From the NCBI GenBank assembly GCA_021776925.1, contig JAJFFB010000043.1:38630-102629 (forward strand): a DNA stretch of 64,000 bases, in the 5' to 3' direction. This stretch comes from Planctomycetota bacterium (GTDB taxonomy: Bacteria > Planctomycetota > UBA1135). This document shows positions 10,549 through 60,450 of this stretch, in pieces (within the stretch, counting starts at the first letter, position 1; each line of letters starts with the position of its first letter). A model generated the notes under the pieces. The model was given only the letters and a program-made list of their open reading frames with translations. It searched no databases and was not told the DNA's origin. Position numbers and translations under genes: made by a program.

Positions 10549-10609
10549 CAGTCCGGGCGCGCAGGCAGGCCGAAACCTGCCCGTGCGTGGCTGTCGACGA
10601 CGGCTGGCC

Positions 10610-10849: not shown

Positions 10850-10878
10850 CGTTCTACAGCTTTTTTTGTTTTTTGGGT

Positions 10879-32724: not shown

Positions 32725-33667
32725 GGGCCGCTGCAGCGGCGGCGGCTTCTTCCTCTTGCTGGCGCCAGCGCCTTTGCAATTCCAGTTCGCGGCGGCGGCG
32801 CGCGCGACGCACAAAGGGAAACAGCAGCAGCGCAAGCAGGAATAGGGTGGTCATCAGGTGCGGATAGAAGTCGCGCAGCAGCTGACGCAGGCTGGTCAGT
32901 TCGGAACGCATCAATTCCTCGTGGGTGACCAGGGCGAGGCCGGTGCTGGCGACCAGGGCCTGGTCCAGAGTGGATCCCTCGCGTACCAGTTGCAGGACGT
33001 CGGGGACCGCCTGCGGCCCGCTGCCACGCACCAGGCGTTCGACGAAGGCATGCGCCAGCGCGTAGCCTTCGGCAGCCTCCACCGGATGCTCGCCAAAACC
33101 CTGATCAAAATCGGATAGCGGCGGCAGCGATCCGCTCGCCGCCCGCCAGCTCAGGCTGATGCCGACCCCGCCGAGGTAGATCTCGCCGCTGTAGTACTCG
33201 GCGCAGCCTTCGTGGAACCACGACGGCAGCGCAGTGAAGGCCTCGGCGCCAAGCGCGCCCATCGCATGATGGACCATTTCGTGGCGCAGAGTGGCGCGCA
33301 GCCGGGCTTCGCCGCCGGCGATGCGTGTGGCGACCACCATGCGTCCCTGCAACGGCAGCGCCACCGCGGCGAACCACTCGGGCACCGGGTGGCCGAGTTC
33401 GGCGGCAATGCCCTCGCGATCGCGCACCCACACCAGCACCCCGCGCCGCGGCGGGCCGAGCCGCAGCTGCCGGTGGATCTCTTCGAGCATGGCGTCGGCC
33501 TCGGCGCTCAGACGCCCGGCCACGTCGGCCATGCCGGCCGGAGCGCTCCATTGGAACCAGCGCGTATTGCCCTGGGCCTGGCCTTCTTGAGCGCGCAGCG
33601 GCGCCAGCAACAACGCGCACAACAGGGCGGTGCAGCCCAGCAGACTTCGGACCCGGCCAGCGCGCAT
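32657..33667 (-). CDS. secreted MA-clan zinc metallopeptidase-like protein with C-terminal TM
   Basis: Start at ATG 33667 gives a signal peptide (MRAGRVRSLLGCTALLCALLLAPLRA). HEMVHH zinc motif, a downstream Glu (WFHEGCAEYY), a C-terminal TM (LMTTLFLLALLLFPFV) and a charged tail. The track ORF's N-terminal 157 aa overlap the divergent gene and are spurious. Confidence 0.75.
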   Translation of the reverse strand: MRAGRVRSLLGCTALLCALLLAPLRAQEGQAQGNTRWFQWSAPAGMADVAGRLSAEADAMLEEIHRQLRLGPPRRGVLVWVRDREGIAAELGHPVPEWFAAVALPLQGRMVVATRIAGGEARLRATLRHEMVHHAMGALGAEAFTALPSWFHEGCAEYYSGEIYLGGVGISLSWRAASGSLPPLSDFDQGFGEHPVEAAEGYALAHAFVERLVRGSGPQAVPDVLQLVREGSTLDQALVASTGLALVTHEELMRSELTSLRQLLRDFYPHLMTTLFLLALLLFPFVRRARRRRELELQRRWRQQEEEAAAAAAALSAQAEAMQAWMDENQARPPGS

Positions 33668-33737
33668 CGCTCGAATTCTACCAGCAGGGCGCTCGCCCTC
33701 GGCGCGGGTTTGGCAAGCACACACCGCGTGGTAGGCT

Positions 33738-34670: not shown

Positions 34671-35927
34671 TCATGGCGTGCACCCAGCTGTCGTGGAGTG
34701 CGCCGCTGGCGTCCTGCGCGCCTCAGCTGGCCCCTGCACTTGGACCATGGCGGGACCCAGCAGGCGGATGGAGTGGTCGCCGCTGCCGGTCCACAGCGTG
34801 CACACGAAGACGTCTTGCTTGCCGTTCAGATCGTCCGCCACCAGGTCGTTGGCGCAAGAGGAAAAGGCGACGAAGCGCCCGTGCTGACAGATGCTCGAGG
34901 CCAGGCTCTTGGCGGAGGCCTGCAGGCCGAGGGCGTCGACGCTGACGCGGCTGGTCACCCCGACCTCCAGATCGCGGAAATACACGTCGCGTACGCCGTT
35001 GACGTCCCAGGGCACCAAGGCGTCTGTGGTTTCAAAGGTCAGGTACGGGCCCAGCGCAGCCAGCGATGCGCCGCGGCTGCCGGTGGCTCCTTCTTGCCCC
35101 AGAGCGTCGACGCTGGCGCGGACCGTGGTGCCCAGCTGACGATCATGAACGAAGACGTCGGTGCTTTGGTTGAGGTCGCCGGGGACCAGATTGTCGGCGG
35201 TTGAAGTGAAGGCAATCCAGCGGCCGCCACCTGTGATCGACGGCTCGGTGCTGGCGCCATTGGCTTGCAACGCAGCGGAATCAACACTCACCCGCTCGGT
35301 GATCCCAGTCTGGCGGTCGTGTACGAATACGTCGGCCACGCCGTTGCTATCGCCGGCAACCAAGTTGGTCGCCGCTGACTCGAAGGCCACGTAGCGGCCA
35401 TCGACCGAGATCGATGGCTGCAGACTATCGCCGAACACCGCCTCGACTCCATTCGAGTCCACGCTCACTCTTTCCGTCACGCCGCTCTGCATGTCATGTA
35501 CGAAGACGTCGACGCGGTTGTTGAAGTCCCCGGCCACCAGATTGTCGGCCAGCGAAGCGAAGGCGATGAACTTTCCGTTCAACGACAAGGACGGATCCTG
35601 CGAGTAGTGATTGCCCTGCACCCCGGCCGAGGTCACGCTGACTCGCGTGGTCAAGCCGCTGACCCAATGGTGCACAAAAACGTCGGGATTGCCATTGCTG
35701 TCTCCCGCCACCAGGTTCTGCGCCTCGGAAAAAAACGCCACGTAACGCCCGTCCAGAGAGATCGAGGGCGCATTGCTCAAGCGGTTGCCCTCGATCCCTG
35801 CCGAATCCACGCTCACCCGCTGGGTTCCTTGAAAGGCCGCAAAGGCCGGCACGGCAGCGGCTTCGAGCGTATTCGGCGCTGCCAGGCTGGCCAGGATCGC
35901 AATGAGAATGGTGGGCTTGTGGTGCAT
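34671..35927 (-). CDS. secreted PD40/TolB-like beta-propeller repeat protein
   Basis: 418 aa with a signal peptide. About 7 repeats of a ~47-aa unit (RVSVDSxGxxxNGxSxxPSISxDGRYVAFxSxAxNLVxGDxNGxxDVFVHD). Confidence 0.8.
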   Translation of the reverse strand: MHHKPTILIAILASLAAPNTLEAAAVPAFAAFQGTQRVSVDSAGIEGNRLSNAPSISLDGRYVAFFSEAQNLVAGDSNGNPDVFVHHWVSGLTTRVSVTSAGVQGNHYSQDPSLSLNGKFIAFASLADNLVAGDFNNRVDVFVHDMQSGVTERVSVDSNGVEAVFGDSLQPSISVDGRYVAFESAATNLVAGDSNGVADVFVHDRQTGITERVSVDSAALQANGASTEPSITGGGRWIAFTSTADNLVPGDLNQSTDVFVHDRQLGTTVRASVDALGQEGATGSRGASLAALGPYLTFETTDALVPWDVNGVRDVYFRDLEVGVTSRVSVDALGLQASAKSLASSICQHGRFVAFSSCANDLVADDLNGKQDVFVCTLWTGSGDHSIRLLGPAMVQVQGPAEARRTPAAHSTTAGCTP

Positions 35928-36154: not shown

Positions 36155-36781
36155 TCATCCTCTCAAGCTATTGAGTCTGTTTTCCCCCATGGCAATCTCG
36201 CAATCTCGGCAAGTGGATATCCAGGCGAGAGAGGACTCAGTATTCAAATGATGGTATTCACCAAAGCCAATAGATCCGGCATTTGGAAAGAGGCCGTTTT
36301 TAGAATCCTGCCAAATCTCAGAACCATAGTAGTCCAGCCAGGGTACCGGGACCCAAGTAAGCAGGGCGCCATGCATCCTGCAGACCAGATCAACCAATTG
36401 TCCATTCGGAGCGTCCATGCTCCAATCCTCCTTGAGGTCTAGAGAAACCCCAGTACATGCGGAGCACGCCCAAAACCAGGCGCCCTTCTCATCCTCGCCG
36501 AAGGTGTTGCTTCGATACTCCATGGAGAGGCGTTTCCAAGAATTGGGGGTTGCAGTAGAAAGCGGTTCGCCTCTTCCCCCCCCCCACCTCACAAAAACAC
36601 ACCCCATTTCCAATCCATGAAGCTCACACTTTCCCCATGGGATCTCATCGATAACGCGATTTGCCGAAACCAACCCGGTCCTGTCCTCTTCATGCCCACA
36701 TCCAGGACAGATAACAATAACGAGGACGACACTGGAAAGGAGTGCGGCCAAGAGTGAATCACGGATTTGGACCCGAACCAT
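36155..36781 (-). CDS. Cys/Trp-rich hypothetical protein (three CxxC motifs), low G+C
   Basis: Track ORF 36155..36784 starts at TTG; ATG at 36781-36779 is the likelier start and shares one nucleotide with the upstream stop (TGATG). N-terminal hydrophobic segment LLAALLSSVVLVIVIC. Motifs CPGC, CSAC and CRDC. I recognise no family. Confidence 0.6.
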   Translation of the reverse strand: MVRVQIRDSLLAALLSSVVLVIVICPGCGHEEDRTGLVSANRVIDEIPWGKCELHGLEMGCVFVRWGGGRGEPLSTATPNSWKRLSMEYRSNTFGEDEKGAWFWACSACTGVSLDLKEDWSMDAPNGQLVDLVCRMHGALLTWVPVPWLDYYGSEIWQDSKNGLFPNAGSIGFGEYHHLNTESSLAWISTCRDCEIAMGENRLNSLRG

Positions 36782-37080
36782 CAAGGACCAACACCTGAAT
36801 CTGGAAGAACGCTGGGCACCCAGGCCAGGCGGGCGCGGCCGCGCAGGCGTTTGACGGCGGCTTCGGCGCGGAAGGCGGAACTCTGGTCGGGGAAGGGGCC
36901 GTAATGGGCGGCTAGGGTCCAGGGGCGGCCGGCCTGAGTTGCACGAGCGCCGCCGGGCAGGCAGCCGTTGTGCTGCTCCAGGCGGCGCTCTACGGCCTTG
37001 GTGGCGCCGACGTAGGTGCGGCGCCCGCAGGCGGAAAGCAGGACGTAGACCTGCCAGGGGTCGTCGCCCGAATCAGAAAT
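36781..37080 (-). CDS. GIY-YIG nuclease-family small protein, no canonical start codon
   Basis: Hand translation of an unlisted minus frame: ...DDPWQVYVLLSACGRRTYVGATKAVERRLEQHNGCLPGGARATQAGRPWTLAAHYGPFPDQSSAFRAEAAVKRLRGRARLAW...*. It has the GIY (VYVL) and YIG (YVG) boxes, RRLxQHN and a conserved Glu. No in-frame ATG/GTG/TTG exists; ATT 37080-37078 or CTG 37104-37102 are the only near-cognate options. Confidence 0.6.
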   Translation of the reverse strand: MSDSGDDPWQVYVLLSACGRRTYVGATKAVERRLEQHNGCLPGGARATQAGRPWTLAAHYGPFPDQSSAFRAEAAVKRLRGRARLAWVPSVLPDSGVGP

Positions 37081-37837
37081 CTGATTCCTCGGTTTCGTCC
37101 GCAGAGCTGGAGTCGCTGCGGAAGGTGTTCTGGATCGTAATCGAGGTTCCGGATCCCTTGAATTCGATCACCGCTTCGGCTCCGTATTTCTCGCGCGCCT
37201 CGGCGATCATGGCGGCACGCTCTTCCTCGGGAGTGTCGCCGGGATAGCGGACGTGGACGCTGCGCTCAGCGCCCTCTTGAGGGAACATGTCGAAAGGCCA
37301 GTTTCGCCCCAAGCCACTCCAATCTTCGCCCCAGGCCGGGAAATCCATCGGAAGGAATTCGAACGGCGGGAATTCCACCCGGGGAAATTCCACCCAAGGG
37401 AATTCGATCGATGGGAACGGGTGATCGGGCCACAAGCGGTCGATTTCGGGCTTCTGCAGCCAGTCGAGGCTCGGGCTCCCTTCGGGCAGGCGGTCGAGCG
37501 GGAAATCCAGGTCCGCTCCTGGACGGCGCCCGAGGATCATTTCCTTGATCAGAACCTGGTCGCCGCGGACCAGCTTCAGGGTGACGAAATCTCCGGCGAG
37601 CAGTCCACTCAGGACCTCGACCAGCCGCGGCGAAGAGGAGATCTCGATGTCGTTGACGGCGAGCACGCGGTCGCCGGCCTGGAGTCCGGCCAGTGCCGCA
37701 GCGGTCTTGTCCTGCACCACGGCGATGGCGGCGCCATTTTGATCATTTTCCGGGTCGAGTTCGACCCCGAGGAAGCCCCCCTGCGCACTCAGGCTAGGGG
37801 CCAGGAGGAGAACAATGGGAATCAACAGTGACTTCAT
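37073..37837 (-). CDS. secreted PDZ-domain protein with EFP-type peptide repeats
   Basis: 254 aa. Signal peptide MKSLLIPIVLLLAPSLSA. PDZ (GFLGVELD...LQAGDRVLAVNDIEI...VTLKLVRG). Repeat SIEFPWVEFPRVEFPPFEFLPMDFP. Confidence 0.8.
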   Translation of the reverse strand: MKSLLIPIVLLLAPSLSAQGGFLGVELDPENDQNGAAIAVVQDKTAAALAGLQAGDRVLAVNDIEISSSPRLVEVLSGLLAGDFVTLKLVRGDQVLIKEMILGRRPGADLDFPLDRLPEGSPSLDWLQKPEIDRLWPDHPFPSIEFPWVEFPRVEFPPFEFLPMDFPAWGEDWSGLGRNWPFDMFPQEGAERSVHVRYPGDTPEEERAAMIAEAREKYGAEAVIEFKGSGTSITIQNTFRSDSSSADETEESDF

Positions 37838-37858: not shown

Positions 37859-39238
37859 TTACTGGACCACGAGGGCCAAGGGATTGGACAAGCCGCCTTC
37901 CCCATAGGCCTCTTGCAGAGCCTGCATCCAGATGGAGCGCCCCGCAAGAGCAACCGGTACCCGGAAGGTATCCAGGACCCGGCCCTGCTCATCAGGGAAA
38001 TAGCTGTCCAGGTGAAGGATCGGTAGCGACAGGAACAGGTCGCCGAAAGGAGTACTCATCGGGCCGGCGCCGGTTAGCGAATAATATACCGAAACCGCCG
38101 CGCTGGGCAGGTCGGCACGGGTGATCTCGACCTCGGCCACCCCGCCGGCAACCAGGTTGCGCACCTCGAGCTGCATGGCACTGACGAAGTCGCTGAAGCG
38201 GATGTCGTCGAGGGCGATGCCTTCGTTCTGGTCGTAACTGAAATTGTCCGCCTGGGCGAAGGCCAGGTAGTAACGCGCGTTGACCGGCAGCACCTGGGTC
38301 GACAGCGGCAGGCGCACGTTGACCCAGTCGCGGCTGTAGTTGGTGATCAGCGCCCAGTCGCGGACCAGCGGCGTCCACACCAATCCGTCGGGGCTGAGAA
38401 AAACGCCGTCGTCGGGGTCGCTCTCTTCACCGAGGTTTTTGACCGAAAAATGCAGGGTCATGGCGTCGAAGCCGCGCCCATCTACGCCGACGACCAGCGC
38501 GTTGGCGACAAAGTGGGGCGCGAGGATGCTCGGCGCACCCCCCATCTCGATGGCATAGGAGCCGCTGTTGGCGTAGGTCGGCAAGCCGTATTGGCCGTAG
38601 TTGACCCAGGCCTCGGCGTCGGCGAGCCGGGTCTCTTCGTCGAGTTCGTTGATCGCCATCCAGGCGTCGAGCATGCCGCCTTCGAAATCGGCGGTCAGGC
38701 GCTGCACCGGCCGGAACAGCGCCGGCAGATTGGGCCAATGCTGCGGCGGCACGTACGGTTGGTCGTCAACCCGTACCCGGTCGAGGCCCCATTCGTTGGC
38801 GCCGTCGCCAGCGTAGTGGAAGTTGAGGCGCACTCCGCTGTGACCGGCAAGACTGCCGAGATCGAGGTCGGTACGCAGTCCGTCGCCGCTGAGCGGCCCG
38901 GTGATGTCCTCCAACAGACGGAAGGTCAGGCCCCCGTCCAGGGTCGCCTCGACCCGGTTGTGATGGCGGAAAACCGAATAGCGCTGGCTGTGCAGCAGAT
39001 GCAGATGAATCGCGCTACTGGAGCTGAAATCCAGCGGCGGGGTCAGCAGGGAGCTGTCGGCGAAGCCGGGCAGGTCATCGTGGAAGGCGGCCGAAAAGCC
39101 GTCGTGCTGCCAGTTCGAACCGGCACCGCTGTGCACCACGTTCCAGCCGGTGGGCGGGAAGACCTGGCTGTCAAAGTCTTCGTCCAAGGCCACCCACTGC
39201 GGGCTGGCGGCGAACATCAGGGTGAGGAGCACGCTCAT
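37859..39238 (-). CDS. secreted tandem beta-sandwich (MAM / choice-of-anchor-J-like) protein with family C-terminal module, paralog P1
   Basis: Start ATG 39238 overlaps the P2 stop (ATGA). Short hydrophobic N-terminus MSVLLTLMFAASPQ. Family motifs LDEDFDSQVFPPTGW, VDDQPYVPPQHWPNLP, GEESDPDDGVFLSPDG, LDDIRF, YSLTGAGPMSTPFG, C-terminus SNPLALVVQ. Confidence 0.8.
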   Translation of the reverse strand: MSVLLTLMFAASPQWVALDEDFDSQVFPPTGWNVVHSGAGSNWQHDGFSAAFHDDLPGFADSSLLTPPLDFSSSSAIHLHLLHSQRYSVFRHHNRVEATLDGGLTFRLLEDITGPLSGDGLRTDLDLGSLAGHSGVRLNFHYAGDGANEWGLDRVRVDDQPYVPPQHWPNLPALFRPVQRLTADFEGGMLDAWMAINELDEETRLADAEAWVNYGQYGLPTYANSGSYAIEMGGAPSILAPHFVANALVVGVDGRGFDAMTLHFSVKNLGEESDPDDGVFLSPDGLVWTPLVRDWALITNYSRDWVNVRLPLSTQVLPVNARYYLAFAQADNFSYDQNEGIALDDIRFSDFVSAMQLEVRNLVAGGVAEVEITRADLPSAAVSVYYSLTGAGPMSTPFGDLFLSLPILHLDSYFPDEQGRVLDTFRVPVALAGRSIWMQALQEAYGEGGLSNPLALVVQ

Positions 39239-40272
39239 TGCACCACCTCCGCGATGGCGTTGGATCGGGTTCCGCCGCCACCGGCCTGAAGTTCGATCGC
39301 CTGCACCCACAGCAGGCGCCCGGTCAGCGCGAAGGGAATCGGGAAATCGGTGGTCAGCACGCCAAAGCCGTTGGAGGTCATCGGCGGCAGCTGGGTGACC
39401 GGCGGCGACAGCGCCAGATCGCCGTAGGGCGAACCGCTCGGGCCCGCTCCGCTGAGCGAATAGGCCAGTTGCACGGTGGCTCCCGGAAGCAGCGTTTCAA
39501 CGCGCAGGGTGGCGTCGGTGCCGCCAACCAGTGAACTCATGCTGAATAGCGGCCGCAAGGAGGGCGTCCACATCGAGACCTGGTCAAATTCGTAGCCGAA
39601 GGTCGAGCCCGATCCGGAAATGAACTTCAATTCGTTGAAGTGAATGTCGGGCATGGTCTCGTCGATCCCGGGATTGGTCTCGGGAAAGGCCTCGAGCGGA
39701 TCGGCCCACACGCGCACGCGGTCGTCGCCGACCTTGAAGTCGATGCGCGTGACCAGCGTGCTGGCAAAGTCGACGTTGGTTCCGGGGATGAACACCGGGT
39801 CGGTGACCCACGGTTTCTCGATGCCGAGTTCGTCACTGCCGAAGGGGCTGCCGATGAACAGGGCCTCTTCCTGGAACTGCCAGTTCAGGACCATACCGCC
39901 GTAGGCCTCGTCGCCGCCAGGAATGCGCCGCAGCGAAAAACGGAACCACAACGTGGTGCCGTCCTTGCCCAAGGTCCAATTGTCGGCGATCTCGAGCATC
40001 GAAGCCATGTCGAGCAGGTGATAGCTGGCGGCGTGGTCGCCCTTGCCACGCAGCATGCCGCCGATGCGGTCGTGTCCGGGGTACTCAACCGCGCCCCAGT
40101 CACCGTTGTCCCCTGACCACCAGGTACCGGTGAAGCCCTTGCCGCCCTCGACGCCGCCGATGAAGCCGGGCTCGTACTCGAAGCTGTCGTGCAGCAAGCG
40201 CACGTTCTGCGCCGTTCCGGAGGCGCTCAGCAGCGCCCCGGTGGCAAGAGTGAGGAGCAGGAGTCTGCGCAT
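39235..40272 (-). CDS. secreted LamG/ConA-like-pattern protein carrying the same C-terminal module, paralog P2
   Basis: Start ATG 40272 lies 2 nt after the GH13 stop. Signal peptide MRRLLLLTLATGALLSASGTA. The N-terminal domain differs from P1 (LLHDSFEYEPGFIGG...GFTGTWW...TLWFRFSL...RVWADP). The C-terminal 100 aa align with P1/P3/P4/P5 (YSLSGAGPSGSPYGDLALSPP...LWVQAIEL...SNAIAEVVQ). Confidence 0.78.
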   Translation of the reverse strand: MRRLLLLTLATGALLSASGTAQNVRLLHDSFEYEPGFIGGVEGGKGFTGTWWSGDNGDWGAVEYPGHDRIGGMLRGKGDHAASYHLLDMASMLEIADNWTLGKDGTTLWFRFSLRRIPGGDEAYGGMVLNWQFQEEALFIGSPFGSDELGIEKPWVTDPVFIPGTNVDFASTLVTRIDFKVGDDRVRVWADPLEAFPETNPGIDETMPDIHFNELKFISGSGSTFGYEFDQVSMWTPSLRPLFSMSSLVGGTDATLRVETLLPGATVQLAYSLSGAGPSGSPYGDLALSPPVTQLPPMTSNGFGVLTTDFPIPFALTGRLLWVQAIELQAGGGGTRSNAIAEVVQ

Positions 40273-40274: not shown

Positions 40275-42458
40275 TCAGTCCTGTGAGTAGACCAGGGCGG
40301 TGTAGGGCCCGACCGGAATCACCGCGCTGTAAGGCATACCATCCCATGGGGTGGCGGTTGCCTGAACGTCGGTCGAGGCGAAGTTGCCGAAGAAGGCGTC
40401 GTAGCCCGACCAGTCGCTATTGAAGCGCAGACGCCAGGTGCCCGCTTGCGGCAGGCCGATGCGGTAGTTGCTCCAGCCGCGGTCGGCGAAATTGGCCACC
40501 ACCACGACGTCGTCGCCGGGTCCGCCCTGGTCCCAACGATGGAAGGCGATCATCTTGTCGCCGTTGTTGACGTGGTGGACGTTGGTACCGTGGCCGCGCA
40601 GGCCACGGGTACTGTTAGACCAGTTGCGGCGCAGCCTGATCAGGTCGCGGTACATCGCGCGGATGCCGCTGAAGGTGACGCGCCGGCCCCAGTCCAGGGG
40701 CTGGTCGTCGTCGAAGTAGCCGTCTTCGAGGAATTCCTGCCCCTGGAACAGCATCGGAATGCCGGGCGAGGTCAGCATCAGCGCCGCGCCCAGTGTCGAG
40801 CGTTTCTTCGAGTACCAGGAGTCGGCGTTGCCCGGCCAGATCTCCTCGGGCACGCGCGCGCCACCGTTGGCGTTTTCATCGTGGGACTCGGTGTAGATGA
40901 CGCGCTGGAACGCGTCGCCGTTGTAGTTGTGGGCGATGGCGTCGCGCACCGCGTACATGTCGCGGTCGGAATCGTTGGGGGCGATCAGCGCGGCGCGCAG
41001 CGGATGCACGAACTCGGCGTCCCACTGGCTGTCAAAGCCGGCCCCGCCAGCACCGCTGTCCTGGGTGATCCAGGGGTTGTTCCACATGTCCTCGGCGATC
41101 GAGATCTTCCAGCCCTGGAACCAGTCGATCTCGTTGTTGACCCACTGCAGCAAGGTCCAGGCCTCGGGGATGTCGCCGCTATTGCCATTGCGCATGAAGG
41201 AGGTCGAATCCCAACGCAAACCGTCGAGGCGGTACTCCTGCAGCCAGAACATCGCGTTGTCGCGGATGTACTGGCGGACTTCCCCGCGACCATAGTCGGG
41301 GCGCGTGTCGCCCCACGGAGTCACGGCGCGGTCGTCGTTGTAGAAATACACCCCCCCCCACGGCCCCTGGGCCCAGCCGTCGAAGCGCCACATGTCGAGG
41401 TCGTTGGGACCCCAGTGATTGTTGACCACGTCGAGGATCACGGCGATGCCGCGCAGGTGCGCCTGCTTGACGAACTCGCGCAACGCTGCAGGCCCGCCGT
41501 AGGCGCTCTCCACGGCAAAAGGTTGGCTGTAGTTGTAGCCCCAGCTCCGATCGCCGGGGAATTCGGCCACCGGCATCAGCTCGATGACGTTGATGCCGAG
41601 GTCGGCGAGGTCGTCCAGTTTCTGCAGCGCGTGCCACAGCGTGCCCGGACCGCTGCCGTTGTTGTCGTTGAAGGTACCGACGTGCATCTCGTAGAGCACC
41701 ATGTCGTCCCAGCTCGGCGTGCTCCATGACTGCCCGCCCCAGTCGAAACGCGAGGCGTCGACGACCACCGAATCGCCGACCGAGTTGGTCATCTCTTCGG
41801 CGCGCGGATCGTTGCGCCACAAGGTGCTGCCGTTGCGCAGCACGTATTGATAATGCGCCCCGTGGCCGAGATTGCGCACGTCGAGCGACCAGTGGCCGTT
41901 GCCTTCGGAAACCATCGGACTGCGCGTCGCCGACCAGCCGTTGAACAGGCCGGCGAGCCACACCTTGCTGGCGTTGGGAGCCCACACGCGGAAGGCGGTT
42001 CCGCTCTCGCCGGTGACGCCGTCGAGGTAGGGGGAAGCGCCCATGCCGCCCCGGATCGAGGCCTTTTCCCGGGTGCGGTAATCAATGCCATAACTGGTAC
42101 CGGTCGAATGGCGGACGCCGATCCACCAGCGCCCACTGCGCAGCGACGGATCGGTGCGCGGGCCGACGACCAGGCTCTCGTTGCTGGTGCCCGGCGTGGC
42201 CGCAGCCATGTCCCAATTGTGCAGATCGGGCTTGGAGCCGAAGCGCAGATAGAGGTCGGCGTCGTTGCCCAGCTGTTGGGTCAAATCGACCTCGAGGCTG
42301 GCCTGCCAATCCTCGACCCAGATCGAATAATAATCGAAGCGGATGGCCACCGGGGCGGCCTGTCCGCCCGCGGGCGGAGGCACTTGCACCTGTCCGGCCC
42401 AGGCCGAAGCGGCAAAAAGGCCCGTGAAGAACGGAAGGGCGAGGGAGTAAGGCAACAT
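40275..42458 (-). CDS. secreted GH13 alpha-amylase-family enzyme (branching-enzyme-like, with N-terminal PPC-like and CBM48-like modules)
   Basis: 727 aa with a signal peptide. All four GH13 regions are present: LDVVNNH, GLRWDSTSF, SIAEDMW, YTESHDE. Upstream are FRVWAPNASKVWLAGLFNGW (E-set/CBM48-like) and DADLYLRFGSKPD (pre-peptidase C-terminal-like). Confidence 0.9.
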   Translation of the reverse strand: MLPYSLALPFFTGLFAASAWAGQVQVPPPAGGQAAPVAIRFDYYSIWVEDWQASLEVDLTQQLGNDADLYLRFGSKPDLHNWDMAAATPGTSNESLVVGPRTDPSLRSGRWWIGVRHSTGTSYGIDYRTREKASIRGGMGASPYLDGVTGESGTAFRVWAPNASKVWLAGLFNGWSATRSPMVSEGNGHWSLDVRNLGHGAHYQYVLRNGSTLWRNDPRAEEMTNSVGDSVVVDASRFDWGGQSWSTPSWDDMVLYEMHVGTFNDNNGSGPGTLWHALQKLDDLADLGINVIELMPVAEFPGDRSWGYNYSQPFAVESAYGGPAALREFVKQAHLRGIAVILDVVNNHWGPNDLDMWRFDGWAQGPWGGVYFYNDDRAVTPWGDTRPDYGRGEVRQYIRDNAMFWLQEYRLDGLRWDSTSFMRNGNSGDIPEAWTLLQWVNNEIDWFQGWKISIAEDMWNNPWITQDSGAGGAGFDSQWDAEFVHPLRAALIAPNDSDRDMYAVRDAIAHNYNGDAFQRVIYTESHDENANGGARVPEEIWPGNADSWYSKKRSTLGAALMLTSPGIPMLFQGQEFLEDGYFDDDQPLDWGRRVTFSGIRAMYRDLIRLRRNWSNSTRGLRGHGTNVHHVNNGDKMIAFHRWDQGGPGDDVVVVANFADRGWSNYRIGLPQAGTWRLRFNSDWSGYDAFFGNFASTDVQATATPWDGMPYSAVIPVGPYTALVYSQD

Positions 42459-42621: not shown

Positions 42622-43998
42622 TCAGGGCAGAACGAAGGTGTTGGGGGTGGAAATCACCACCACGCCGTTAAAAAGCTCTACCGCCTGGCTCCACGCGGTC
42701 AGGCCCGAGGTCCACGGGGGCGCTTCGCCGGTGATGCGCACCTGGCCGGCAGCGTCGGCGAAGGAAACCGCCAGGATCTCGATCGGGCGGCTCAGATCCA
42801 GCGCCCCCCACGGGGTGAAGGTGGGTCCCGGTCCGACCTTGGAAAAATAGAAGGTGACGCGGGCGGCGGGCTGGGCGCGGAGGACCTCCAGGTTGACCTT
42901 GTTGTTGAGGCCGCTCCAGACGTCGAGTTCAGGCTGGTAGAAAAAGCGCAGATCATCGACCACCACGCCGTCGAGGTCGGCGAATGGCCGGTTGTCGGCC
43001 TGGGCGATGGCGAAGTAGAAATCGATGCTGGTGTCGACGTCGGCCGAATCCAGCGGAACGCGCACCGACTGCCAGGTACCAAGGTTGCCGGGCCCGCCGG
43101 TGGCGGTTTCCCAGTCATTGCCCAGCGCGAACCAGGTGGTGCCGTCCTGGCTCAGGAACACGCCGTCGTCGGGGTCGACTTCTTCGCCAAAATTGAGCGC
43201 ATTGAACTGACACAGGAGGCGTCCGCCGCCCCCGCCGTTGAGGCCAACGATCAAGGCGTTGGACATGATCGGGCCGGGACCGCTGCCCGGGCGCCGCCCC
43301 ATTTCCAGAGCACACTCGCCGAAGGCGGTAGTGCACGGACCGAGCTGACCGTAATTGCACCAGGCATCGGCGCTGTCCAAACGACTGGCAGCGTCAAGGG
43401 CGTTGACGCGCAGGTACATCGGAAAGAGCCCGTCCAGCCCCTCGAAATCCTGGAAGAAACCATCGGCCATAGTGATGCGTTGCGGCAGGTGCGGCCAGCG
43501 CGGCGGCGGCGCATAGGGTTGGTCGTCGACGCGCACCGATTCCAGCCACCACTGATTGGAGAAATCTCCCTGGTAGTGAAAGGCCAGCTGCACGGTCGGC
43601 AGCCCGGCCCAGGCGCTGAGATCCAGTTCCAGCATCTGGCCGCCGCCGTCGGCGATCGCCGACACGTAGACGTCGCTGAAAGTAAGGCCGCCATCGAGGG
43701 AGACCTGCATCGCGTTGCGATCCCGGAAGGGACTGTCCAAGGAACCCTCGACCGCGTGCAGCCACACAGAACCGAAGGACTGCAGGTCCATGACCGGGGT
43801 CAGCAGGCGGCTGTCCTGAGCACCGAGGAAGGCGTCGTGCAGTGCACTGCCGCTGGACTCTTCCCAGCCCGGCCCCACGCCCAGGAAGGTCTCGCTCCAG
43901 GCCGGTGGCGGAAACACGCCGCCGTCGAAACTCTCGTCCAAAGCCACCTGCTGGGACGGCGCGGTGAAGAGCAGCAGCAACGCGGCAACCGCAACCAT
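42622..43998 (-). CDS. secreted tandem beta-sandwich protein with family C-terminal module, paralog P3
   Basis: Start ATG 43998-43996 shares one nucleotide with the P4 stop (TGATG). N-terminus MVAVAALLLLFTAPSQ. Motifs LDESFDGGVFPPPAW, VDDQPYAPPPRWPHLP, GEEVDPDDGVFLSQDG, VDDLRF, FSKVGPGPTFTPWG. Confidence 0.8.
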   Translation of the reverse strand: MVAVAALLLLFTAPSQQVALDESFDGGVFPPPAWSETFLGVGPGWEESSGSALHDAFLGAQDSRLLTPVMDLQSFGSVWLHAVEGSLDSPFRDRNAMQVSLDGGLTFSDVYVSAIADGGGQMLELDLSAWAGLPTVQLAFHYQGDFSNQWWLESVRVDDQPYAPPPRWPHLPQRITMADGFFQDFEGLDGLFPMYLRVNALDAASRLDSADAWCNYGQLGPCTTAFGECALEMGRRPGSGPGPIMSNALIVGLNGGGGGRLLCQFNALNFGEEVDPDDGVFLSQDGTTWFALGNDWETATGGPGNLGTWQSVRVPLDSADVDTSIDFYFAIAQADNRPFADLDGVVVDDLRFFYQPELDVWSGLNNKVNLEVLRAQPAARVTFYFSKVGPGPTFTPWGALDLSRPIEILAVSFADAAGQVRITGEAPPWTSGLTAWSQAVELFNGVVVISTPNTFVLP

Positions 43999-45410
43999 CA
44001 CTGGACCTCCAGCGTCAGCGGGTTGGAAAACCGACCGTCCACGCCGAGGAATTCGATCGCTTGCGCCCACACCGCGCGGCCAATAGCTGCGACCGGAACC
44101 GCCACCTGCAAACGCACCATTCCGTTGAGGTCCGGATCGCGGGTCACCAGGGTGACGGTCGGAGCGCTGACCTGAGCCAGGCCATAAGGCGTCAGCGTCG
44201 GCCCAGCGCCGTCGAAGGAATAAAGAATGGTGACCACGCGTGCAGGATCGGCGCCCTCGACCAGGACCTCGGCGGTCTGACCGCCAATGAGATTGCTGAC
44301 GGTGACCTGCAGAGGCTGGACGCTGCTGCCGATGCGCACGTCATCGATGGCAACGCCGTCGTTGCTGCCGTAGGGGAAGTCGTCGGCCTGGGCAAAGGCG
44401 AGGAAAAAATTACCATCCAGGGATACCGGAGTGGTGTCCATGAAGAAGGACAGCTTGCGCCAGCTTTCGGCGTAAGCGGTGCCGCCGGTCTGCAACACCC
44501 AGTCGGTGCGCAGCGGGTGCCAGGTGATGCCGTCCTGGCTGAGGAAGACGCCATCGTCGGCGTTCCATTCTTCGTTGAGCTGGTATACCTGAAATTCAAG
44601 CGCCGGCTGCACCAGGCTGCTGCCGTTGAGGCCGATGACCAAAGCGTTGGACACGTCATGAAAGGTCGCGGCATGAGGATGCAAGCCGAGTTCCAGACAG
44701 GTGCTTCCCGAGTAGGCAAAAAGACTCGGGGCGAGTTGGCCGACGTTGCACCAACCCTCCAGGTCGGGCTTGCGGCTGAACTCATCGACGCTGTTGATGC
44801 CCATCGACGCGGGCACGACTCCCAGCAATTCGTCGAAGCGCATGCGGTAGCCTTCGGCCTCGTCGAACTGGGTCGGCAACTCCGGCCAATAGGGCGGAAT
44901 CAACGGCGGCAGGTTGTCGATAGTGACGCGGTCCAGGGTCCATTCATTGGCGAAATCGCCCTGGTAGTGAAACATCACCTGAAAACCGGCGATGCCGGCG
45001 TAGGCGCTGAGATCGAGTTCAAGCGGAAAATTAGGTCCGTCCTGCGGCTGGCTGACCTGGTGCACCAGATTCGAGCTGATGCCGCCATCGAGCGTCACCC
45101 GCACCTCATTGATTTCGCGATAGGTGCTGAACAACTGCCCGTGGATCGCGTGCAGGCTCAGCTGCGAAAAGCCGGTGGAATCCAGCAGCGGGGTGACCAG
45201 ATCAGCATCGCTGAGCCCGAACCAGTCGAGATGGCGCGCACGCCCCGAGGGCTCCCAATCCCAGCCGGGGGTCGAGCCCTGGTTCCAGTGCTCCCAGCCG
45301 CTGGGCGGAAAGAGGGCGCTGTCGAATTCCTCGTGCAGAAGAACCGATTGGCTGGAGAGAGGCGCCGCAAGGGCGCTCAAACAGGTCAGAGTGACGATCA
45401 GGACCTTCAT
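43998..45410 (-). CDS. secreted tandem beta-sandwich protein with family C-terminal module, paralog P4
   Basis: Start ATG 45410 (MKVLIVTLTCLSALAAPLSS). Motifs LHEEFDSALFPPSGW, IDNLPPLIPPYWPELP, NEEWNADDGVFLSQDG, IDDVRI, YSFDGAGPTLTPYG, C-terminus SNPLTLEVQ. The 583-aa track ORF has a spurious N-terminal extension. Confidence 0.8.
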   Translation of the reverse strand: MKVLIVTLTCLSALAAPLSSQSVLLHEEFDSALFPPSGWEHWNQGSTPGWDWEPSGRARHLDWFGLSDADLVTPLLDSTGFSQLSLHAIHGQLFSTYREINEVRVTLDGGISSNLVHQVSQPQDGPNFPLELDLSAYAGIAGFQVMFHYQGDFANEWTLDRVTIDNLPPLIPPYWPELPTQFDEAEGYRMRFDELLGVVPASMGINSVDEFSRKPDLEGWCNVGQLAPSLFAYSGSTCLELGLHPHAATFHDVSNALVIGLNGSSLVQPALEFQVYQLNEEWNADDGVFLSQDGITWHPLRTDWVLQTGGTAYAESWRKLSFFMDTTPVSLDGNFFLAFAQADDFPYGSNDGVAIDDVRIGSSVQPLQVTVSNLIGGQTAEVLVEGADPARVVTILYSFDGAGPTLTPYGLAQVSAPTVTLVTRDPDLNGMVRLQVAVPVAAIGRAVWAQAIEFLGVDGRFSNPLTLEVQ

Positions 45411-45466: not shown

Positions 45467-46921
45467 TCAGGCAAGGATTTGCCGGACAACCTTGCCGTGC
45501 ACGTCGGTCAGACGGAAATCGCGCCCCTGGTGGCGGAAGGTCAGCCGCTGGTGGTCGATGCCAAGGCAGTGCAGGATGGTGGCGTTGACGTCGTGCAGAT
45601 GCACCGGATCCTGGACGATGTTGTAGCTGAAATCGTCGGTCTGCCCGAGTTGGACGCCGCCCTTGATGCCTCCGCCCGCGAACCAGAAGGTGAAACAGCG
45701 CGGATGATGGTCGCGGCCATAGTCCTCGCGCGTCAGCTTGCCCTGGCAATAGACGGTGCGCCCGAACTCACCGCCCCACACCACCAGGGTGTCGTCGAGC
45801 ATGCCACGCTGCTTCAGGTCCTGCAGCAGGCCAGCGCTCGGCTGGTCGACGTCGCGACAGCTGCGCCGGATGGTCCCGGGCAGATTGAAATGGTGGTCCC
45901 AGCCGCGGATGAAAATCTGGACGCAGCGCACGTCGCGTTCGAACATGCGCCGCGTTAACAGGCAGCTGTGGGCGAAGGTGCCCGGGGTGGTCACGTCAGG
46001 GCCGTAGAGGTCGAGCACGTGCTCGGGCTCGCCGCTGACGTCGACCAGGTCGGGCACCGAAGCCTGCATGCGGAAGGCCATTTCATATTGGGCGATGCGC
46101 GTGGCGATCTCGGGATCCGGATCCTGCTGCAGACGCTGCTGGTTGAGGCTCTGCAGGGTGTCGAGCATGGCGCGGCGCGAAGCGCGGTCGATACCGTCCG
46201 GATCAGACAGGTACAGGATCGGATCGCCGTTGGCGCGCAGGGCCACGCCCTGATGCCGGCTGGGCAGGAAACCGGTTCCCCACATGCGCGAGAACAGCGC
46301 TTGTGCTTCCTTGCGCCCGGTCCAGGTCGGCGTCATGACGACGAAACTGGGCAGGTTCTGGTTGGCGCTGCCGAGGCCGTAGGACAACCACGCCCCCATG
46401 CTCGGCCGCCCAGGAAGCTGGTGGCCGCTGAGGATGAAGGTCATCGCCGGGTCGTGGTTGATCGCCTCGGTGTGGATGCTGCGCACGATGGCGAGGTCGT
46501 CGACCATCGCCGCGGTGTGCGGCAGAAGTTCACTGACCCAGGCGCCGCTGGCTCCATGCTGCTTGAACTCGAACAGGGATGGCGCGATCGGCAGGCGCTC
46601 CTGTCCCGAAGTCATCGTTGTGATGCGCTGTCCCTGGCGGATCGAATCGGGCAGGTCCTGGTCGAAGCGCTCACCGAGACCTGCTTTGTAGTCGAAGGTG
46701 TCGAGTTGCGAGACTCCGCCGGACATGAACAGGTAAACCACGCGCTTGGCGGTCGGCGCGTGGTGGAAGACGGGCATGACTCCGCCCAGGCCGGGTTCCT
46801 GGGCCAGCAGCCGACCAGGCAGCAAGGAGGCAAGCGAAGCGCTGCCGAGTGCAGCACAGCTGCGGCCGAGGAATTGGCGCCGGCTGAGTGCCGCAAGGTC
46901 GAGGTGCTCAGAGGGGTTCAT
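45467..46921 (-). CDS. DUF1501-family (sulfatase-fold) protein with Tat signal
   Basis: Start ATG 46921. Twin-arginine motif [26 protein letters not shown]1501-type C-terminus ([10 protein letters not shown]...[22 protein letters not shown]). Starts 5 nt after the upstream stop. Confidence 0.88.
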
Positions 46922-49900: not shown

Positions 49901-50433
49901 GTGACGCGCCGCAACCAGCGCTCAGCGTCGGCCTCAGGAGCGGGCAGCATGTCCTCGCGCTCGAGCCGCTCCAATAAGAAATGATCGATCGGGTTGCGCG
50001 GCCAGCCACTCTCGTGCACCACCGGCAACGCCGCCTTTTCCGGTGCTACGAAGGACCAGTGGGCGGCGTAACCAGCCCCTTGCTCGATCCAGCGGCGCAG
50101 GGTTCGGATCTGCTCCGGGCTCAGAGTCTTGCCGCTCTTGCGTGGCGGCATGCGGTCGCTGACGTCGTCGTTACTGATGCGAAACCACAATTCGCTGTCG
50201 TCAAGGTCGCCTGGAACCACTGCCGAATAGCCGTCGAGGTCAGCGGTGGCACCGGCGAAGGAATCCAGGCGCAGGCCTGCCTCGCGCGTGCCGGCGTCGG
50301 GACCATGGCAGAGAAAGCAGTTCTCCGACAGGATCGGACGCACGTCGCGATTGAAGTCGACCAATCCGCCCTCCGGGGCGGCAGGCGTCTGGACGGCGGT
50401 CAAGAGGAGCAGGGCGATCATGGTGGAGACCAC
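46927..50433 (-). CDS. PSCyt1 / DUF1549 / DUF1553 family protein
   Basis: 1168 aa. N-terminal cytochrome-like [23 protein letters not shown]1549-like [12 protein letters not shown]...[16 protein letters not shown], a central beta-rich insert, and a DUF1553-like C-terminus ending [14 protein letters not shown] 50433 or ATG 50421 start. Confidence 0.88.
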
Positions 50434-59064: not shown

Positions 59065-60450
59065 TCACTGAATGATTTCCATGACCGCGTTGGAGAAGAA
59101 CCCCTTGTTCCTCTGTACCTCCAGCACCTGCACCCATACAGGTGAGCCAGACATCCATGCAGGCACGTGCAACAGCGCCTGCACCTCCCCGTTGGCGTCG
59201 GCAAGCAGATTGACCTTTCGATAGGGCGACCCGACCTGGGCGTCGCCGTAGGGCGTGCTGGTCGGCCCCGGACCGACCAGGGAAAAGGCCAGCGTAATCG
59301 CCGCATCGGCCTCGGCACCGTACACGCGGACGGTGGTATCGGCGCCCGCGATCAGCGGATCAACCTGCAAACCGAGCTTGGTCAGCGAGAGATCGTCGAT
59401 TCCAATGCCGTCATTGTCAAGGTAGGGATAGTTGTCGGTCTGCGCCAAGGCCAAAAAGAAGGGTCGATTCAAATTTAAACCACTGCTCGACAGATCGAGC
59501 AGAACCTCGTTCCACACCAGGATCTCGGCCCCGCCGTGCAGGCTGCTCCAATTGCCGCCGAGGGCCTGCCAGTTGACGCCGTCCGGACTCAGGTAGACCC
59601 CGTCCCACCCAGGACCGTCTTCCTCTCCGCCGTCCATCACCTGGAAGGCGAGCCAGCGGGTGCCGCCGCCACTGCCGTCGAGGCCCAGGATCAGCGCATT
59701 GGAAACGTTGTGGTAGGCAAGGCTGCCAGGGCGCAGGCCCATCTCCAGGTTGAAGGAACCCGAATAGGGCAGCAGGCAGGTCCCGGATTGCCCGATGTTG
59801 CACCACGCTTCGGCGTCGTCCAGTCGGCTGAGATGATCCAGGGCGTTCACCGCCATGTGCGACGGCACGCTGCCGGCGATGGAGTCAAAGGATTCGAAGT
59901 AGCCCAGCGCTGGAGTAAAGGTGGAGGGCAGGTGTGGGAAAGGGGCCGCAGAAGGCGGCGCCTGGTCGTCGACCACCACCCGGTCCAGCCCCCATTCGTT
60001 GGCGAAGTCCCCGCTGTAGTGGAAGGCCACACTGACGCCGTCGAAGGCCAGCCAGGCGGCCAGGTCCAGGTCGACGTGGCTGGCGCCGTCGCCGCCGCCT
60101 TCGATGTAGACCGGGGTGTAGCTGAGTCCGCCATCGAGGCTGAGCTCGACCGCGTTGAGGTCGCGGTAGTAGGACCAGTATTGGTCCTGGTCGAAATGCA
60201 GCCACACCTCGGAGACTGCCTGTGCAGCGATATCCAGGTCGGGACTGCGCAGATAGGCATCGCTGAATCCGGCAAAATCATCGTGAACCGCACGGCCGCC
60301 GACAGCGTCAGGTTCCCAGCCAATGGTAGCGCCAAGGTTGTCTTCAGCCCAACCGCTCGGCGGCACCACGCCAGTGTCGAAACCTTCGTCGAGCAGGACC
60401 GTCTGGCTCAGCAGCGGCGCCAGGGCGAGGAGCAAGGGGGCGGAAAGCAA
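59065..60450 (-). CDS. secreted tandem beta-sandwich protein with family C-terminal module, paralog P5
   Basis: 461 aa. TTG start sits immediately after an in-frame stop. N-terminus MLSAPLLLALAPLLSQ. Motifs LDEGFDTGVVPPSGW, VDDQAPPSAAPFPHLP, GEEDGPGWDGVYLSPDG, IDDLSL, FSLVGPGPTSTPYG, C-terminus SNAVMEIIQ. Confidence 0.8.
   Translation of the reverse strand: MLSAPLLLALAPLLSQTVLLDEGFDTGVVPPSGWAEDNLGATIGWEPDAVGGRAVHDDFAGFSDAYLRSPDLDIAAQAVSEVWLHFDQDQYWSYYRDLNAVELSLDGGLSYTPVYIEGGGDGASHVDLDLAAWLAFDGVSVAFHYSGDFANEWGLDRVVVDDQAPPSAAPFPHLPSTFTPALGYFESFDSIAGSVPSHMAVNALDHLSRLDDAEAWCNIGQSGTCLLPYSGSFNLEMGLRPGSLAYHNVSNALILGLDGSGGGTRWLAFQVMDGGEEDGPGWDGVYLSPDGVNWQALGGNWSSLHGGAEILVWNEVLLDLSSSGLNLNRPFFLALAQTDNYPYLDNDGIGIDDLSLTKLGLQVDPLIAGADTTVRVYGAEADAAITLAFSLVGPGPTSTPYGDAQVGSPYRKVNLLADANGEVQALLHVPAWMSGSPVWVQVLEVQRNKGFFSNAVMEIIQ

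What the first reader, a model, noticed from the sequence alone, without database searches (positions are those of the whole stretch)
39235..40272. Shared ~100-aa C-terminal module grafted onto an unrelated N-terminal domain: candidate novel sorting or anchoring domain
P2 has a different N-terminal domain, with a LamG/ConA-like pattern (LLHDSFEY...GFTGTWW...TLWFRFSL...RVWADP). Its last ~100 aa nevertheless align with the C-termini of P1, P3, P4 and P5.

Consensus by eye: L.V..L..G..a...V.ga.P.a.V.l.YSL.GAGP..TPyGdl.LS.P......d..G......vP....G...W.QA.E......SN.....vQ-stop.

The module always sits at the extreme C-terminus, and four of the five copies end in SNxxxxxxQ. That placement is what C-terminal sorting domains show (T9SS CTD, PEP-CTERM and similar). 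Choice-of-anchor-type N-terminal domains are known for being paired with alternative C-terminal sorting signals.

No TM segment or basic tail follows, so it is not PEP-CTERM or LPXTG-like.
Basis: inference. Interest (0 to 1): 0.62.

Follow-up and report, generated by a model that had tools for sequence, protein, structure and literature searches.

The report
New terminal tag domain, marine Planctomycetota
The last ~105 residues of this secreted protein are a real, undescribed beta-sandwich domain that marine Planctomycetota attach, nearly always at the very C-terminus, to dozens of unrelated exported proteins, so it behaves like a sorting or surface-anchoring tag, but that function is inferred and untested.

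Summary
Five minus-strand genes in the window end in the same ~105-aa module. P2 (39235-40272) shares only that module with the other four.

The module folds as a confident all-beta sandwich (pLDDT 97). It has no Pfam, NCBIfam or PDB sequence match, and defines a family of about 1,150 clusters at 50% identity. Every member that carries a taxon name comes from an uncultured Planctomycetota MAG.

It behaves like a tag:
- one copy per protein
- C-terminal in 144 of 149 top hits and in all 45 module ORFs of the metagenome loci
- at least 34 unrelated extracellular-type passengers
- signal peptides at the N-terminus
- several paralogues per locus

P2 orthologues keep their GH13 neighbour but carry three unrelated C-terminal modules in different lineages. 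In one assembly, modules on unrelated passengers stay 69-92% identical while synonymous sites have largely diverged.

Evidence against a strict C-terminal signal: four hits carry the module N-terminally, just after the signal peptide. No processing or secretion gene was found nearby.

Verdict: most likely a new envelope-targeting or anchoring domain, analogous but not homologous to the T9SS CTD. The function is inferred only.

The parts
39235..40272 (-). P2 CDS (345 aa plus stop): signal peptide, ConA-like N-domain and C-terminal module
   Evidence: ORF list. Identical 345-aa protein P0001. Gene call on a Logan contig.
40207..40272 (-). P2 signal peptide (MRRLLLLTLATGALLSASGTAQ; probable cleavage GTA|Q)
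   Evidence: Read directly from the sequence. A21 and Q22 are invariant in 11 homologues. The cleavage site is inferred.
39556..40206 (-). P2 N-terminal beta jelly-roll-like passenger domain, unrelated to P1/P3/P4/P5
   Evidence: No BLAST match to the other four proteins. Weak Foldseek matches to ConA-like lectins and glucanases. Conserved next to GH13 in 13 MAG loci.
39238..39555 (-). P2 C-terminal module (residues 240-345), the feature in question
   Evidence: Alignment A1. HMM hit. AF2 model at pLDDT 97.2.
37859..39238 (-). P1 CDS (459 aa); module at 37862-38179. Its start overlaps the end of P2 by 4 nt.
42622..44001 (-). P3 CDS (459 aa); module at 42625-42936. The N-domain hits choice_anch_J weakly.
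43998..45410 (-). P4 CDS (470 aa); module at 44001-44318. Overlaps the start of P3 by 4 nt.
59065..60450 (-). P5 CDS (461 aa); module at 59068-59376
40275..42458 (-). Secreted GH13 alpha-glucan enzyme (PPC, CBM48, Alpha-amylase, Alpha-amylase_C) immediately upstream of P2. It is P2's conserved partner and carries no module itself.
   Evidence: Pfam. Synteny in L003 and L005-L015, with a GH13 C-terminal fragment upstream in L002 and L004.
37073..37837 (-). Small secreted PDZ-domain protein downstream of P1. The neighbourhood is conserved in close relatives, and a role in the module's function is not shown.
   Evidence: Pfam. Synteny in L002, L005 and L006.

Best explanation
The ~105-aa C-terminus of P2, and of P1, P3, P4 and P5, is an independently folding beta-sandwich domain. 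It belongs to an undescribed family that, wherever a taxon name is available, occurs in uncultured marine Planctomycetota.

It acts as a portable terminal tag on Sec-exported proteins. After export across the inner membrane, the tag is recognised by a partner shared by all carriers in a cell. That partner fixes the cargo's final location, either by delivering it to the cell surface or by retaining it there.

In layout it parallels the T9SS C-terminal domain of Bacteroidota: a signal peptide with Gln at +1, a variable passenger, then a ~100-aa Ig-like domain with a conserved beta3-beta4 loop and last strand. It is not homologous to that domain.

Shown here: the domain is real, what fold class it has, where it sits, how promiscuous it is, that it is swapped between orthologues, and that it is under purifying selection independent of the passenger.

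Inferred: that it is recognised by a partner, and that this determines localisation.

Unresolved: whether the tag is cleaved after outer-membrane translocation (signal mode) or kept as a non-covalent anchor (docking mode). I lean slightly to docking. The N-terminal occurrences and the dockerin-like conservation within one assembly favour it.
For: - Family size and novelty. A profile of the five window copies finds 1,152 cluster representatives at E<=1e-3 and 380 at E<=1e-10. Pfam, NCBIfam and PDB sequence searches find nothing for the module.
- Fold. The AF2 model has pLDDT 97.2 and is all-beta.
- Position. 144 of 149 top hits have the module within 5 residues of the C-terminus. All 31 module ORFs scanned in the window, L001 and the Planctomycetota MAG loci have a tail of 0-1 residues. 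All 45 in the metagenome loci are C-terminal; the full-length matches have a tail of 0-2 residues, and two weak partial matches 5 and 8.
- Copy number. One copy per protein.
- Passengers. 34 unrelated N-terminal clusters among 112 proteins. The Pfam types are all extracellular: FG-GAP, C-type lectin, Chlamydia PMP repeats, beta-helix, reprolysin, subtilase, GH16, metallophosphoesterase.
- Signal peptides. The five window proteins have them, as do most family members.
- Swapping. GH13-linked P2 orthologues carry this module in L002-L010. They carry a Cys-rich module in L011-L012 and a third module in L013-L015. hhalign detects no homology between the three. The other two types are also C-terminal on several passengers, and one co-occurs with this module on a single contig.
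- Selection. In contigs of one assembly (FLOH01), modules on unrelated passengers are 69-92% identical. The identical-codon fraction at conserved residues is 0.43-0.54, against 0.32 expected at saturation.
- Taxonomy. Named members are Planctomycetota MAG proteins annotated as hypothetical.
Against: - Four of 149 top hits (P0090, P0127 and P0155 with FGE-sulfatase, and P0092) have the module N-terminally, right after the signal peptide. A free C-terminus is therefore not obligatory.
- No recurrent neighbouring gene that could be a sortase, translocon or receptor was found across about 50 loci or in the window.
- The family-wide invariant residues are mostly Gly and Pro at turns. That is what a purely structural domain would also show.
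- The five copies in the window are only 29-39% identical to each other, so the strong within-assembly conservation is not universal.
- The junction to the passenger is only about 5-8 residues and has no conserved cleavage motif.
- There is no experimental evidence on localisation or processing.
- Taxonomy beyond the named members is unknown.
Confidence: 0.55

Rival explanations
1. Ligand-binding accessory module (CBM- or lectin-like). The sandwich binds a common external ligand, such as a marine polysaccharide, particle surface or prey surface. It brings diverse enzymes and adhesins to that ligand and plays no part in sorting.
For: - Terminal, single-copy beta-sandwiches on secreted enzymes are typical of CBMs.
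- P2 sits in a conserved operon with a secreted GH13 that has CBM48 and PPC domains.
- Occurrence at the N-terminus is tolerated.
- Three semi-conserved aromatic positions exist: YS, TP[FYW]G and VW.QA.
- Strong conservation within one assembly would also fit a shared ligand.
Against: - The passengers are mostly not carbohydrate-active. They include FG-GAP, PMP repeats, proteases, phosphoesterases and FGE-like domains.
- CBMs are frequently internal or in tandem, whereas this module is neither.
- No CBM family matches by sequence, and none stands out by fold.
- No aromatic or charged residue is invariant across the family.
Confidence: 0.17
2. Strict T9SS-like secretion signal. The module is recognised by an outer-membrane translocon and then cleaved off, exactly as type A CTDs are, by a so far unrecognised system in these Planctomycetota. 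This is the narrower signal-mode version of the best explanation.
For: - The module is near-exclusively C-terminal, and its last strand ends at the stop codon.
- It is a ~105-aa Ig-like sandwich with a conserved beta3-beta4 loop and C-terminal motif. That matches the layout described for T9SS CTDs (PMC11285876).
- The cargo repertoire resembles that of T9SS.
- Signal peptides follow a Q-rule-like pattern. In Bacteroidota that pattern coincides phylogenetically with T9SS (PMC5837995).
- Several CTD types coexist, as type A and type B CTDs do.
Against: - There is no HMM match to Por_Secre_tail/TIGR04183 or any other CTD model.
- The solved CTDs 5AG8, 5M11, 6ZA2 and 5Y1A are not among the top 50 Foldseek hits.
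- T9SS is reported only in Bacteroidota and the FCB group (PMC10515386, PMC5837995).
- N-terminal copies exist.
- Identity within one assembly is 69-92%, against 0-30% among P. gingivalis CTDs (PMC11285876).
- No machinery genes were seen.
Confidence: 0.22
3. Passive structural domain. This would be a generic Ig-like stalk, stabiliser or oligomerisation domain that happens to be C-terminal, with no targeting role.
For: - Foldseek gives only generic Ig, FN3 and adhesin-repeat matches.
- The invariant residues are Gly and Pro at turns.
- The junction to the passenger is short and tight.
- No partner gene was found.
Against: - Structural Ig or FN3 domains are usually internal or in tandem, whereas this one is single and terminal in about 97-100% of cases.
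- It is swapped between orthologues for unrelated terminal modules.
- 69-92% identity across unrelated passengers, with diverged synonymous sites, is hard to explain without a shared interaction.
Confidence: 0.08

Closest known systems
T9SS C-terminal domain, type A (TIGR04183 / PF18962 Por_Secre_tail) of Bacteroidota
   Same: - A folded Ig-like beta-sandwich of about 70-108 aa at the extreme C-terminus of Sec-exported proteins.
- Many paralogues per genome, with very diverse cargo (proteases, glycosidases, adhesins).
- The conserved elements are the beta3-beta4 loop and the last strand.
- The cargo signal peptides expose Gln at +1.
   Different: - No sequence homology, and no close structural match among the top PDB hits.
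- The hosts are Planctomycetota, where T9SS is not known.
- About 10 DSSP strands rather than 7.
- A few N-terminal copies exist.
- Identity within one assembly can be much higher.
Dockerin modules (PF00404) of cellulosomal and other secreted proteins
   Same: A single terminal module, mostly C-terminal and occasionally N-terminal, on many unrelated secreted enzymes. It is highly conserved within a species because all copies bind one partner. It is portable between passengers.
   Different: A dockerin is a small Ca-binding helical duplicated repeat, not a beta-sandwich. No cohesin-like partner has been identified here. The linkers here are very short.
Choice-of-anchor domain families (e.g. NF038128 choice_anch_J) and their alternative C-terminal signals (PEP-CTERM, LPXTG, T9SS CTD)
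   Same: Homologous passengers are paired with alternative C-terminal modules in different genomes. The N-domains of P1 and P3-P5 resemble choice-of-anchor J.
   Different: Only P3 hits NF038128, and below the cut-off. The C-terminal modules here are folded ~105-140-aa domains, not motif + TM + basic-tail signals. None of them is in NCBIfam.
PPC, bacterial pre-peptidase C-terminal domain (PF04151)
   Same: A beta-sandwich appended to secreted hydrolases, often removed after secretion. One is present in the neighbouring GH13.
   Different: No sequence match to the module. PPC is not confined to the terminus and is mainly found on peptidases.

Membership tests
T9SS type A CTD (TIGR04183 / PF18962) | Significant match to the family HMM | tested here: not met
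   No Pfam hit at E<=10 for isolated modules. No Pfam or NCBIfam hit on the full proteins or a consensus-like module.
T9SS type A CTD (TIGR04183 / PF18962) | Extreme C-terminal position on proteins with a Sec signal peptide | tested here: met
   144 of 149 top hits are C-terminal, as are 31 of 31 module ORFs in the window, L001 and the MAG loci and 45 of 45 in the metagenome loci. Signal peptides are present. There are four N-terminal exceptions.
T9SS type A CTD (TIGR04183 / PF18962) | Seven-stranded 3+4 Ig-like sandwich superposable on solved CTDs (5AG8, 5M11, 6ZA2, 5Y1A) | tested here: inconclusive
T9SS type A CTD (TIGR04183 / PF18962) | Host encodes T9SS machinery (SprA/Sov, PorV, GldKLMN, PorU) | not testable with these tools
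   Only loci of up to 20 kb and the 64-kb window were available, and none shows such genes. Whole MAGs could not be scanned.
PEP-CTERM, LPXTG and other tripartite sorting signals | Short motif followed by a TM helix and a basic tail at the C-terminus | tested here: not met
   All five proteins end in the last beta-strand (..VVQ..EVQ..IIQ..VLP) directly before the stop codon.
Choice-of-anchor J (NF038128), for the N-domains of P1 and P3-P5 | Score above the curated cut-off of 30 bits | tested here: not met
   P3 scores 23.6 bits (E 5e-5). P1, P4 and P5 have no hit.
Dockerin (PF00404) | Duplicated Ca-binding helical repeat; HMM match | tested here: not met
   No Pfam hit. The model is all-beta apart from one 3-residue helical turn.
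FN3 / Ig-like structural domains | Fold similarity plus the typical internal or tandem arrangement | tested here: inconclusive
   Fold-level matches only (best E 1.8e-3). The arrangement is single-copy and terminal, unlike typical FN3 or Big repeats.
ConA-like lectin/glucanase (LamG-like), for the P2 N-domain | HMM or clear structural match to a ConA-like jelly roll | tested here: inconclusive
   No Pfam hit. Foldseek gives E 6e-4 to 1e-2 and TM 0.2-0.45 to GH131, legume lectins, PL7 and CBM66, using a model with pLDDT 73.

The most novel reading that the evidence does not exclude
These marine Planctomycetota run a previously unrecognised cargo-sorting pathway that is analogous to type IX secretion but not homologous to it. 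Sec substrates with Gln at +1 of the signal-peptide cleavage site carry one of at least three interchangeable folded C-terminal beta-rich tags. This module is one of them. A dedicated envelope machinery reads the tags and takes the cargo across or onto the outer membrane. That would be a new secretion or surface-display system in the PVC superphylum, and it would extend the 'Bacteroidetes-only' Q-rule.
Probability: 0.22. Interest if true: 0.8.

Novelty: new variant of a known kind. Interest (0 to 1): 0.6.

Why it matters
How Planctomycetota move their large repertoire of degradative enzymes and adhesins to the cell surface is poorly understood. A portable terminal domain shared by dozens of unrelated exported proteins would help in three ways.
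- It gives a sequence handle, in the form of an HMM, for predicting the surface or secreted proteome of abundant uncultured marine lineages.
- It can be used as bait to find the machinery or receptor that recognises it.
- It is a possible display tag for engineering.

It also shows that the cargo architecture considered typical of Bacteroidota T9SS has at least an analogue outside the FCB group: a signal peptide with Gln at +1, a passenger, and an Ig-like C-terminal domain.

Tried and rejected
- The search for homologous proteins returned nothing with the five-module alignment and one protein with a family consensus. The word index does not reach this family, so I relied on the exhaustive profile search.
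I used the P2 alignment A2 for genomes and a closer subset, A7, for metagenomes.
- hhalign of this module against the two alternative C-terminal modules gave probabilities of 5.5% and 0.3%. I therefore dropped the idea that all three are detectably one superfamily, although a shared fold is not excluded.
- I searched for a recurrent neighbouring gene as a candidate sortase, translocon or receptor across all loci and found none. The P1-PDZ-Peptidase_MA_2 synteny occurs only among close relatives, so I do not treat it as functional evidence.
- Recent gene conversion as the reason for 69-92% module identity in FLOH01 was rejected for most pairs. Synonymous sites are largely diverged; the L030/L026 pair is the exception.
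- Three literature searches for a description of the module or of the FLOH01 assembly found nothing.
- The weak 19-stretch hit to a 2,554-aa HYR-repeat protein (P0030) was not reproduced per domain. I treat it as cumulative Ig-like noise.
Full report
**1.
The region 39235-40272 on the minus strand is a 345-aa CDS, called P2 here. An identical protein is on record, and the same gene is called on a Logan contig between a GH13 gene and P1.

Four other minus-strand genes are full-length paralogues of one another at 40-43% identity: P1 (37859-39238), P3 (42622-44001), P4 (43998-45410) and P5 (59065-60450). P2 aligns to them only over its last ~77-125 residues, at 32-40% identity and E 8e-6 to 2e-16.

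An HMM built from four of the modules finds the fifth at E 6e-25. The next best of all six-frame ORFs in the window scores E 0.79.

All five modules run to the stop codon. Four end in SNxxxxxxQ. All five proteins begin with signal-peptide-like sequences.

P4/P3 and P2/P1 overlap by 4 nt, and GH13 ends 2 nt before P2 begins. The genes therefore look like operons.

**2. What the module is.**
Pfam (2025) and NCBIfam (2026) have no model that matches it, even at permissive thresholds. A profile search of PDB sequences finds nothing.

With a 51-sequence alignment, AlphaFold gives a very confident all-beta model with pLDDT 97.2, pTM 0.86 and about ten DSSP strands.

The most conserved segments are the loop YSLxGxGPTxTPxG after the third strand, VWxQA, and SNxLAxxVQ at the end.

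**3. Size and spread of the family.**
A profile of the five window copies, searched exhaustively against 1.84 billion cluster representatives, finds 1,152 proteins at E<=1e-3 and 380 at E<=1e-10.

Loci encoding P2 orthologues come almost entirely from uncultured marine Planctomycetota MAGs. The few other family members that carry NCBI names are 'hypothetical protein [Planctomycetota bacterium]'.

The window itself carries the Planctomycete-typical PSCyt1/PSCyt2/PSD1 and DUF1501 gene pair.

Metagenome loci that carry the module range from 43% to 72% GC. The family is therefore broad, but taxonomy beyond the named members was not testable.

**4. It behaves like a tag.**
- *Position, top hits.* Of the best 149 hits, 144 have the module within five residues of the C-terminus. 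Four have it N-terminally, directly after the signal peptide. One has a junk tail that suggests a frameshift.
- *Position, loci.* All 31 module ORFs scanned in the window, L001 and the Planctomycetota MAG loci are C-terminal, as are all 45 in the metagenome loci.
- *Copy number.* It is present once per protein.
- *Passengers.* The regions N-terminal to it fall into 34 unrelated clusters among 112 proteins. The Pfam domains are all of extracellular type: FG-GAP, C-type lectin, Chlamydia PMP repeats, beta-helix, reprolysin-like and subtilisin proteases, GH16, metallophosphoesterase and LamG.
- *Density.* There are five copies in this 64-kb window, up to six in a 21-kb MAG locus, and at least ten strong copies on seven contigs of one assembly, FLOH01.

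**5. Orthologues swap the module.**
The GH13 -> P2 gene pair is conserved in 13 MAG loci. P2 orthologues end in this module in L002-L010. They end in a Cys-rich ~140-aa module in L011-L012, and in a third ~130-aa module in L013-L015 and in P0010/P0011.

Profile-profile comparison detects no homology among the three. None of them is in Pfam or NCBIfam.

The other two types are also strictly C-terminal on several different passengers. One of them occurs on the same contig as this module.

An orthologous passenger in a conserved context with interchangeable terminal modules is the choice-of-anchor pattern.

**6. Selection acts on the module independently of the passenger.**
In the FLOH01 contigs, proteins whose N-terminal parts show no similarity carry modules that are 69-92% identical. 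In contrast, paralogous passengers that are 53-67% identical carry modules that are only 48-75% identical.

At conserved residues only 43-54% of codons are identical, against 32% expected at saturation. One pair reaches 72%. Most of this similarity is therefore maintained by purifying selection rather than by recent gene conversion.

The simplest reading is that all copies must fit one shared partner. Two caveats apply. That the contigs come from a single organism is inferred from the assembly prefix and their GC content. And the window's own five copies are only 29-39% identical.

**7. What argues for caution.**
They show that a free C-terminus is not essential.
- No candidate sortase, translocon or receptor recurs next to carriers or lies in the window.
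- The P1-PDZ-Peptidase_MA_2 neighbourhood is shared only by close relatives.
- Family-wide invariant residues are mostly Gly and Pro at turns.
- The junction to the passenger is short and has no conserved cleavage motif.

**8. Interpretation.**
The best-supported explanation is a terminal envelope-targeting or anchoring domain, read by a shared partner after Sec export (confidence 0.55).

It works like a T9SS CTD or a dockerin, but it is a member of neither family. The HMM tests fail, the host phylum is wrong for T9SS, and the fold is wrong for a dockerin. By the description in PMC11285876, T9SS CTDs are 67-108-aa seven-stranded Ig-like sandwiches with a conserved beta3-beta4 loop and C-terminal motif, and they are 0-30% identical within P. 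gingivalis. The layout here is parallel, but the conservation within one assembly is much higher.

The rivals are:
- a ligand-binding CBM-like module (0.17);
- a purely structural Ig-like domain (0.08);
- the narrow, strictly T9SS-like cleaved-signal version of the main idea (0.22), which is a subset of the best explanation rather than additional to it.

**9. P2 itself.**
Its N-domain gives only weak ConA-like, lectin or glucanase fold matches, from a model with pLDDT 73. Its strict linkage to a secreted GH13 with PPC and CBM48 domains suggests a role in extracellular alpha-glucan handling. This is inference.

**10. A by-product.**
The signal peptides of module-bearing proteins almost always end in small-x-small followed by Gln:
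- 68 of 84 top hits;
- 36 of 41 module ORFs in the loci;
- 14 of 14 AXA-compatible cases in the MAG loci.

So do 21 of 28 non-module signal-peptide ORFs in the same MAG loci. This resembles the 'Q-rule', which is described as exclusive to Bacteroidetes and as coinciding there with T9SS (PMC5837995, PMC10653852). Those studies did not analyse Planctomycetes.

**11. Verdict.**
This is a real, statistically solid and previously undescribed domain family with strong comparative signatures of a sorting or anchoring tag. Its function is unproven. I rate it a new variant of a known kind, with interest 0.6.

Noticed in passing
window 40207-40272 (P2), 37760-37837 (PDZ), N-termini of P1, P3, P4 and P5; loci L002-L051: Q-rule-like signal peptides. 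The signal peptide ends in small-x-small followed by Gln in 14 of 14 module proteins and 21 of 28 non-module secreted-looking ORFs of the Planctomycetota MAG loci. The Q-rule (Gln at +1, cyclised to pyroglutamate) is published as exclusive to Bacteroidetes, and Planctomycetes were not analysed in those papers.
   Followed up: partly
window 40275-42458 with 39235-40272; loci L002-L015: The gene pair of a secreted GH13 (PPC, CBM48, alpha-amylase) followed by a P2-type protein is conserved in 13 Planctomycetota MAG loci, even where the P2 orthologue has a different C-terminal module. This suggests a functional unit for extracellular alpha-glucan handling.
   Followed up: partly
L011:9956-11236, L011:11388-13337, L016-L024 (about 10001-11200); L013-L015, L049:5078-6973: There are two further uncharacterised C-terminal modules of about 130-140 aa. 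One is Cys-rich (..PGGSQGNLCL.G.IGRY..W.F..WYRD..SNF..V.F). The other reads GS.SGT.PG..LPLN.D.Y..LD..G.A..HA..V. Both are absent from Pfam and NCBIfam, and both are C-terminal on several different passengers.
   Followed up: partly
P0090, P0127, P0155 (representative proteins, not in the window): Proteins with the architecture signal peptide, module, then FGE-sulfatase (SUMF1-like) domain. These are the only recurrent architecture with the module at the N-terminus.
   Followed up: partly
L026, L027, L028, L030, L031, L033, L034 (contigs FLOH01000xxx): One assembly with contigs of 100-555 kb carries at least ten strong module copies that are 69-92% identical on unrelated passengers. The organism is unidentified, and no paper mentions the accession prefix.
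   Followed up: partly
window 37073-37837 and 32657-33715; L002, L005, L006: A small secreted PDZ protein and a membrane-anchored Peptidase_MA_2 protein follow the P1-type gene in close relatives. PDZ domains bind C-termini, so a link to the module is conceivable. However, the synteny is seen only among close relatives.
   Followed up: partly
window 34671-35927 (-): A secreted protein made of about seven PD40/TolB-like repeats (..VSVDS.G..GN..S..PS.S.DGR.VAF.S.A.NLV.GD.N...DVFVHD..). Its homologue in L011 carries the Cys-rich C-terminal module, while the window copy has none.
   Followed up: no
window 45467-46870 and 46927-50433 (-): A DUF1501 gene and a PSCyt1/PSCyt2/PSD1 gene form the typical Planctomycete gene pair, immediately upstream of P4. 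This supports the taxonomic assignment.
   Followed up: yes
window 56114-59047 (+) and 36155-36784 (-): A 977-aa ORF and a 209-aa Cys-rich, lipoprotein-like ORF have no Pfam match.
   Followed up: no
P0030 (2,554-aa HYR-repeat protein from the representative library): It scored 87 bits against the module profile through 19 weak partial stretches (profile positions 50-101). This was not reproduced per domain and is probably cumulative Ig-like similarity.
   Followed up: partly
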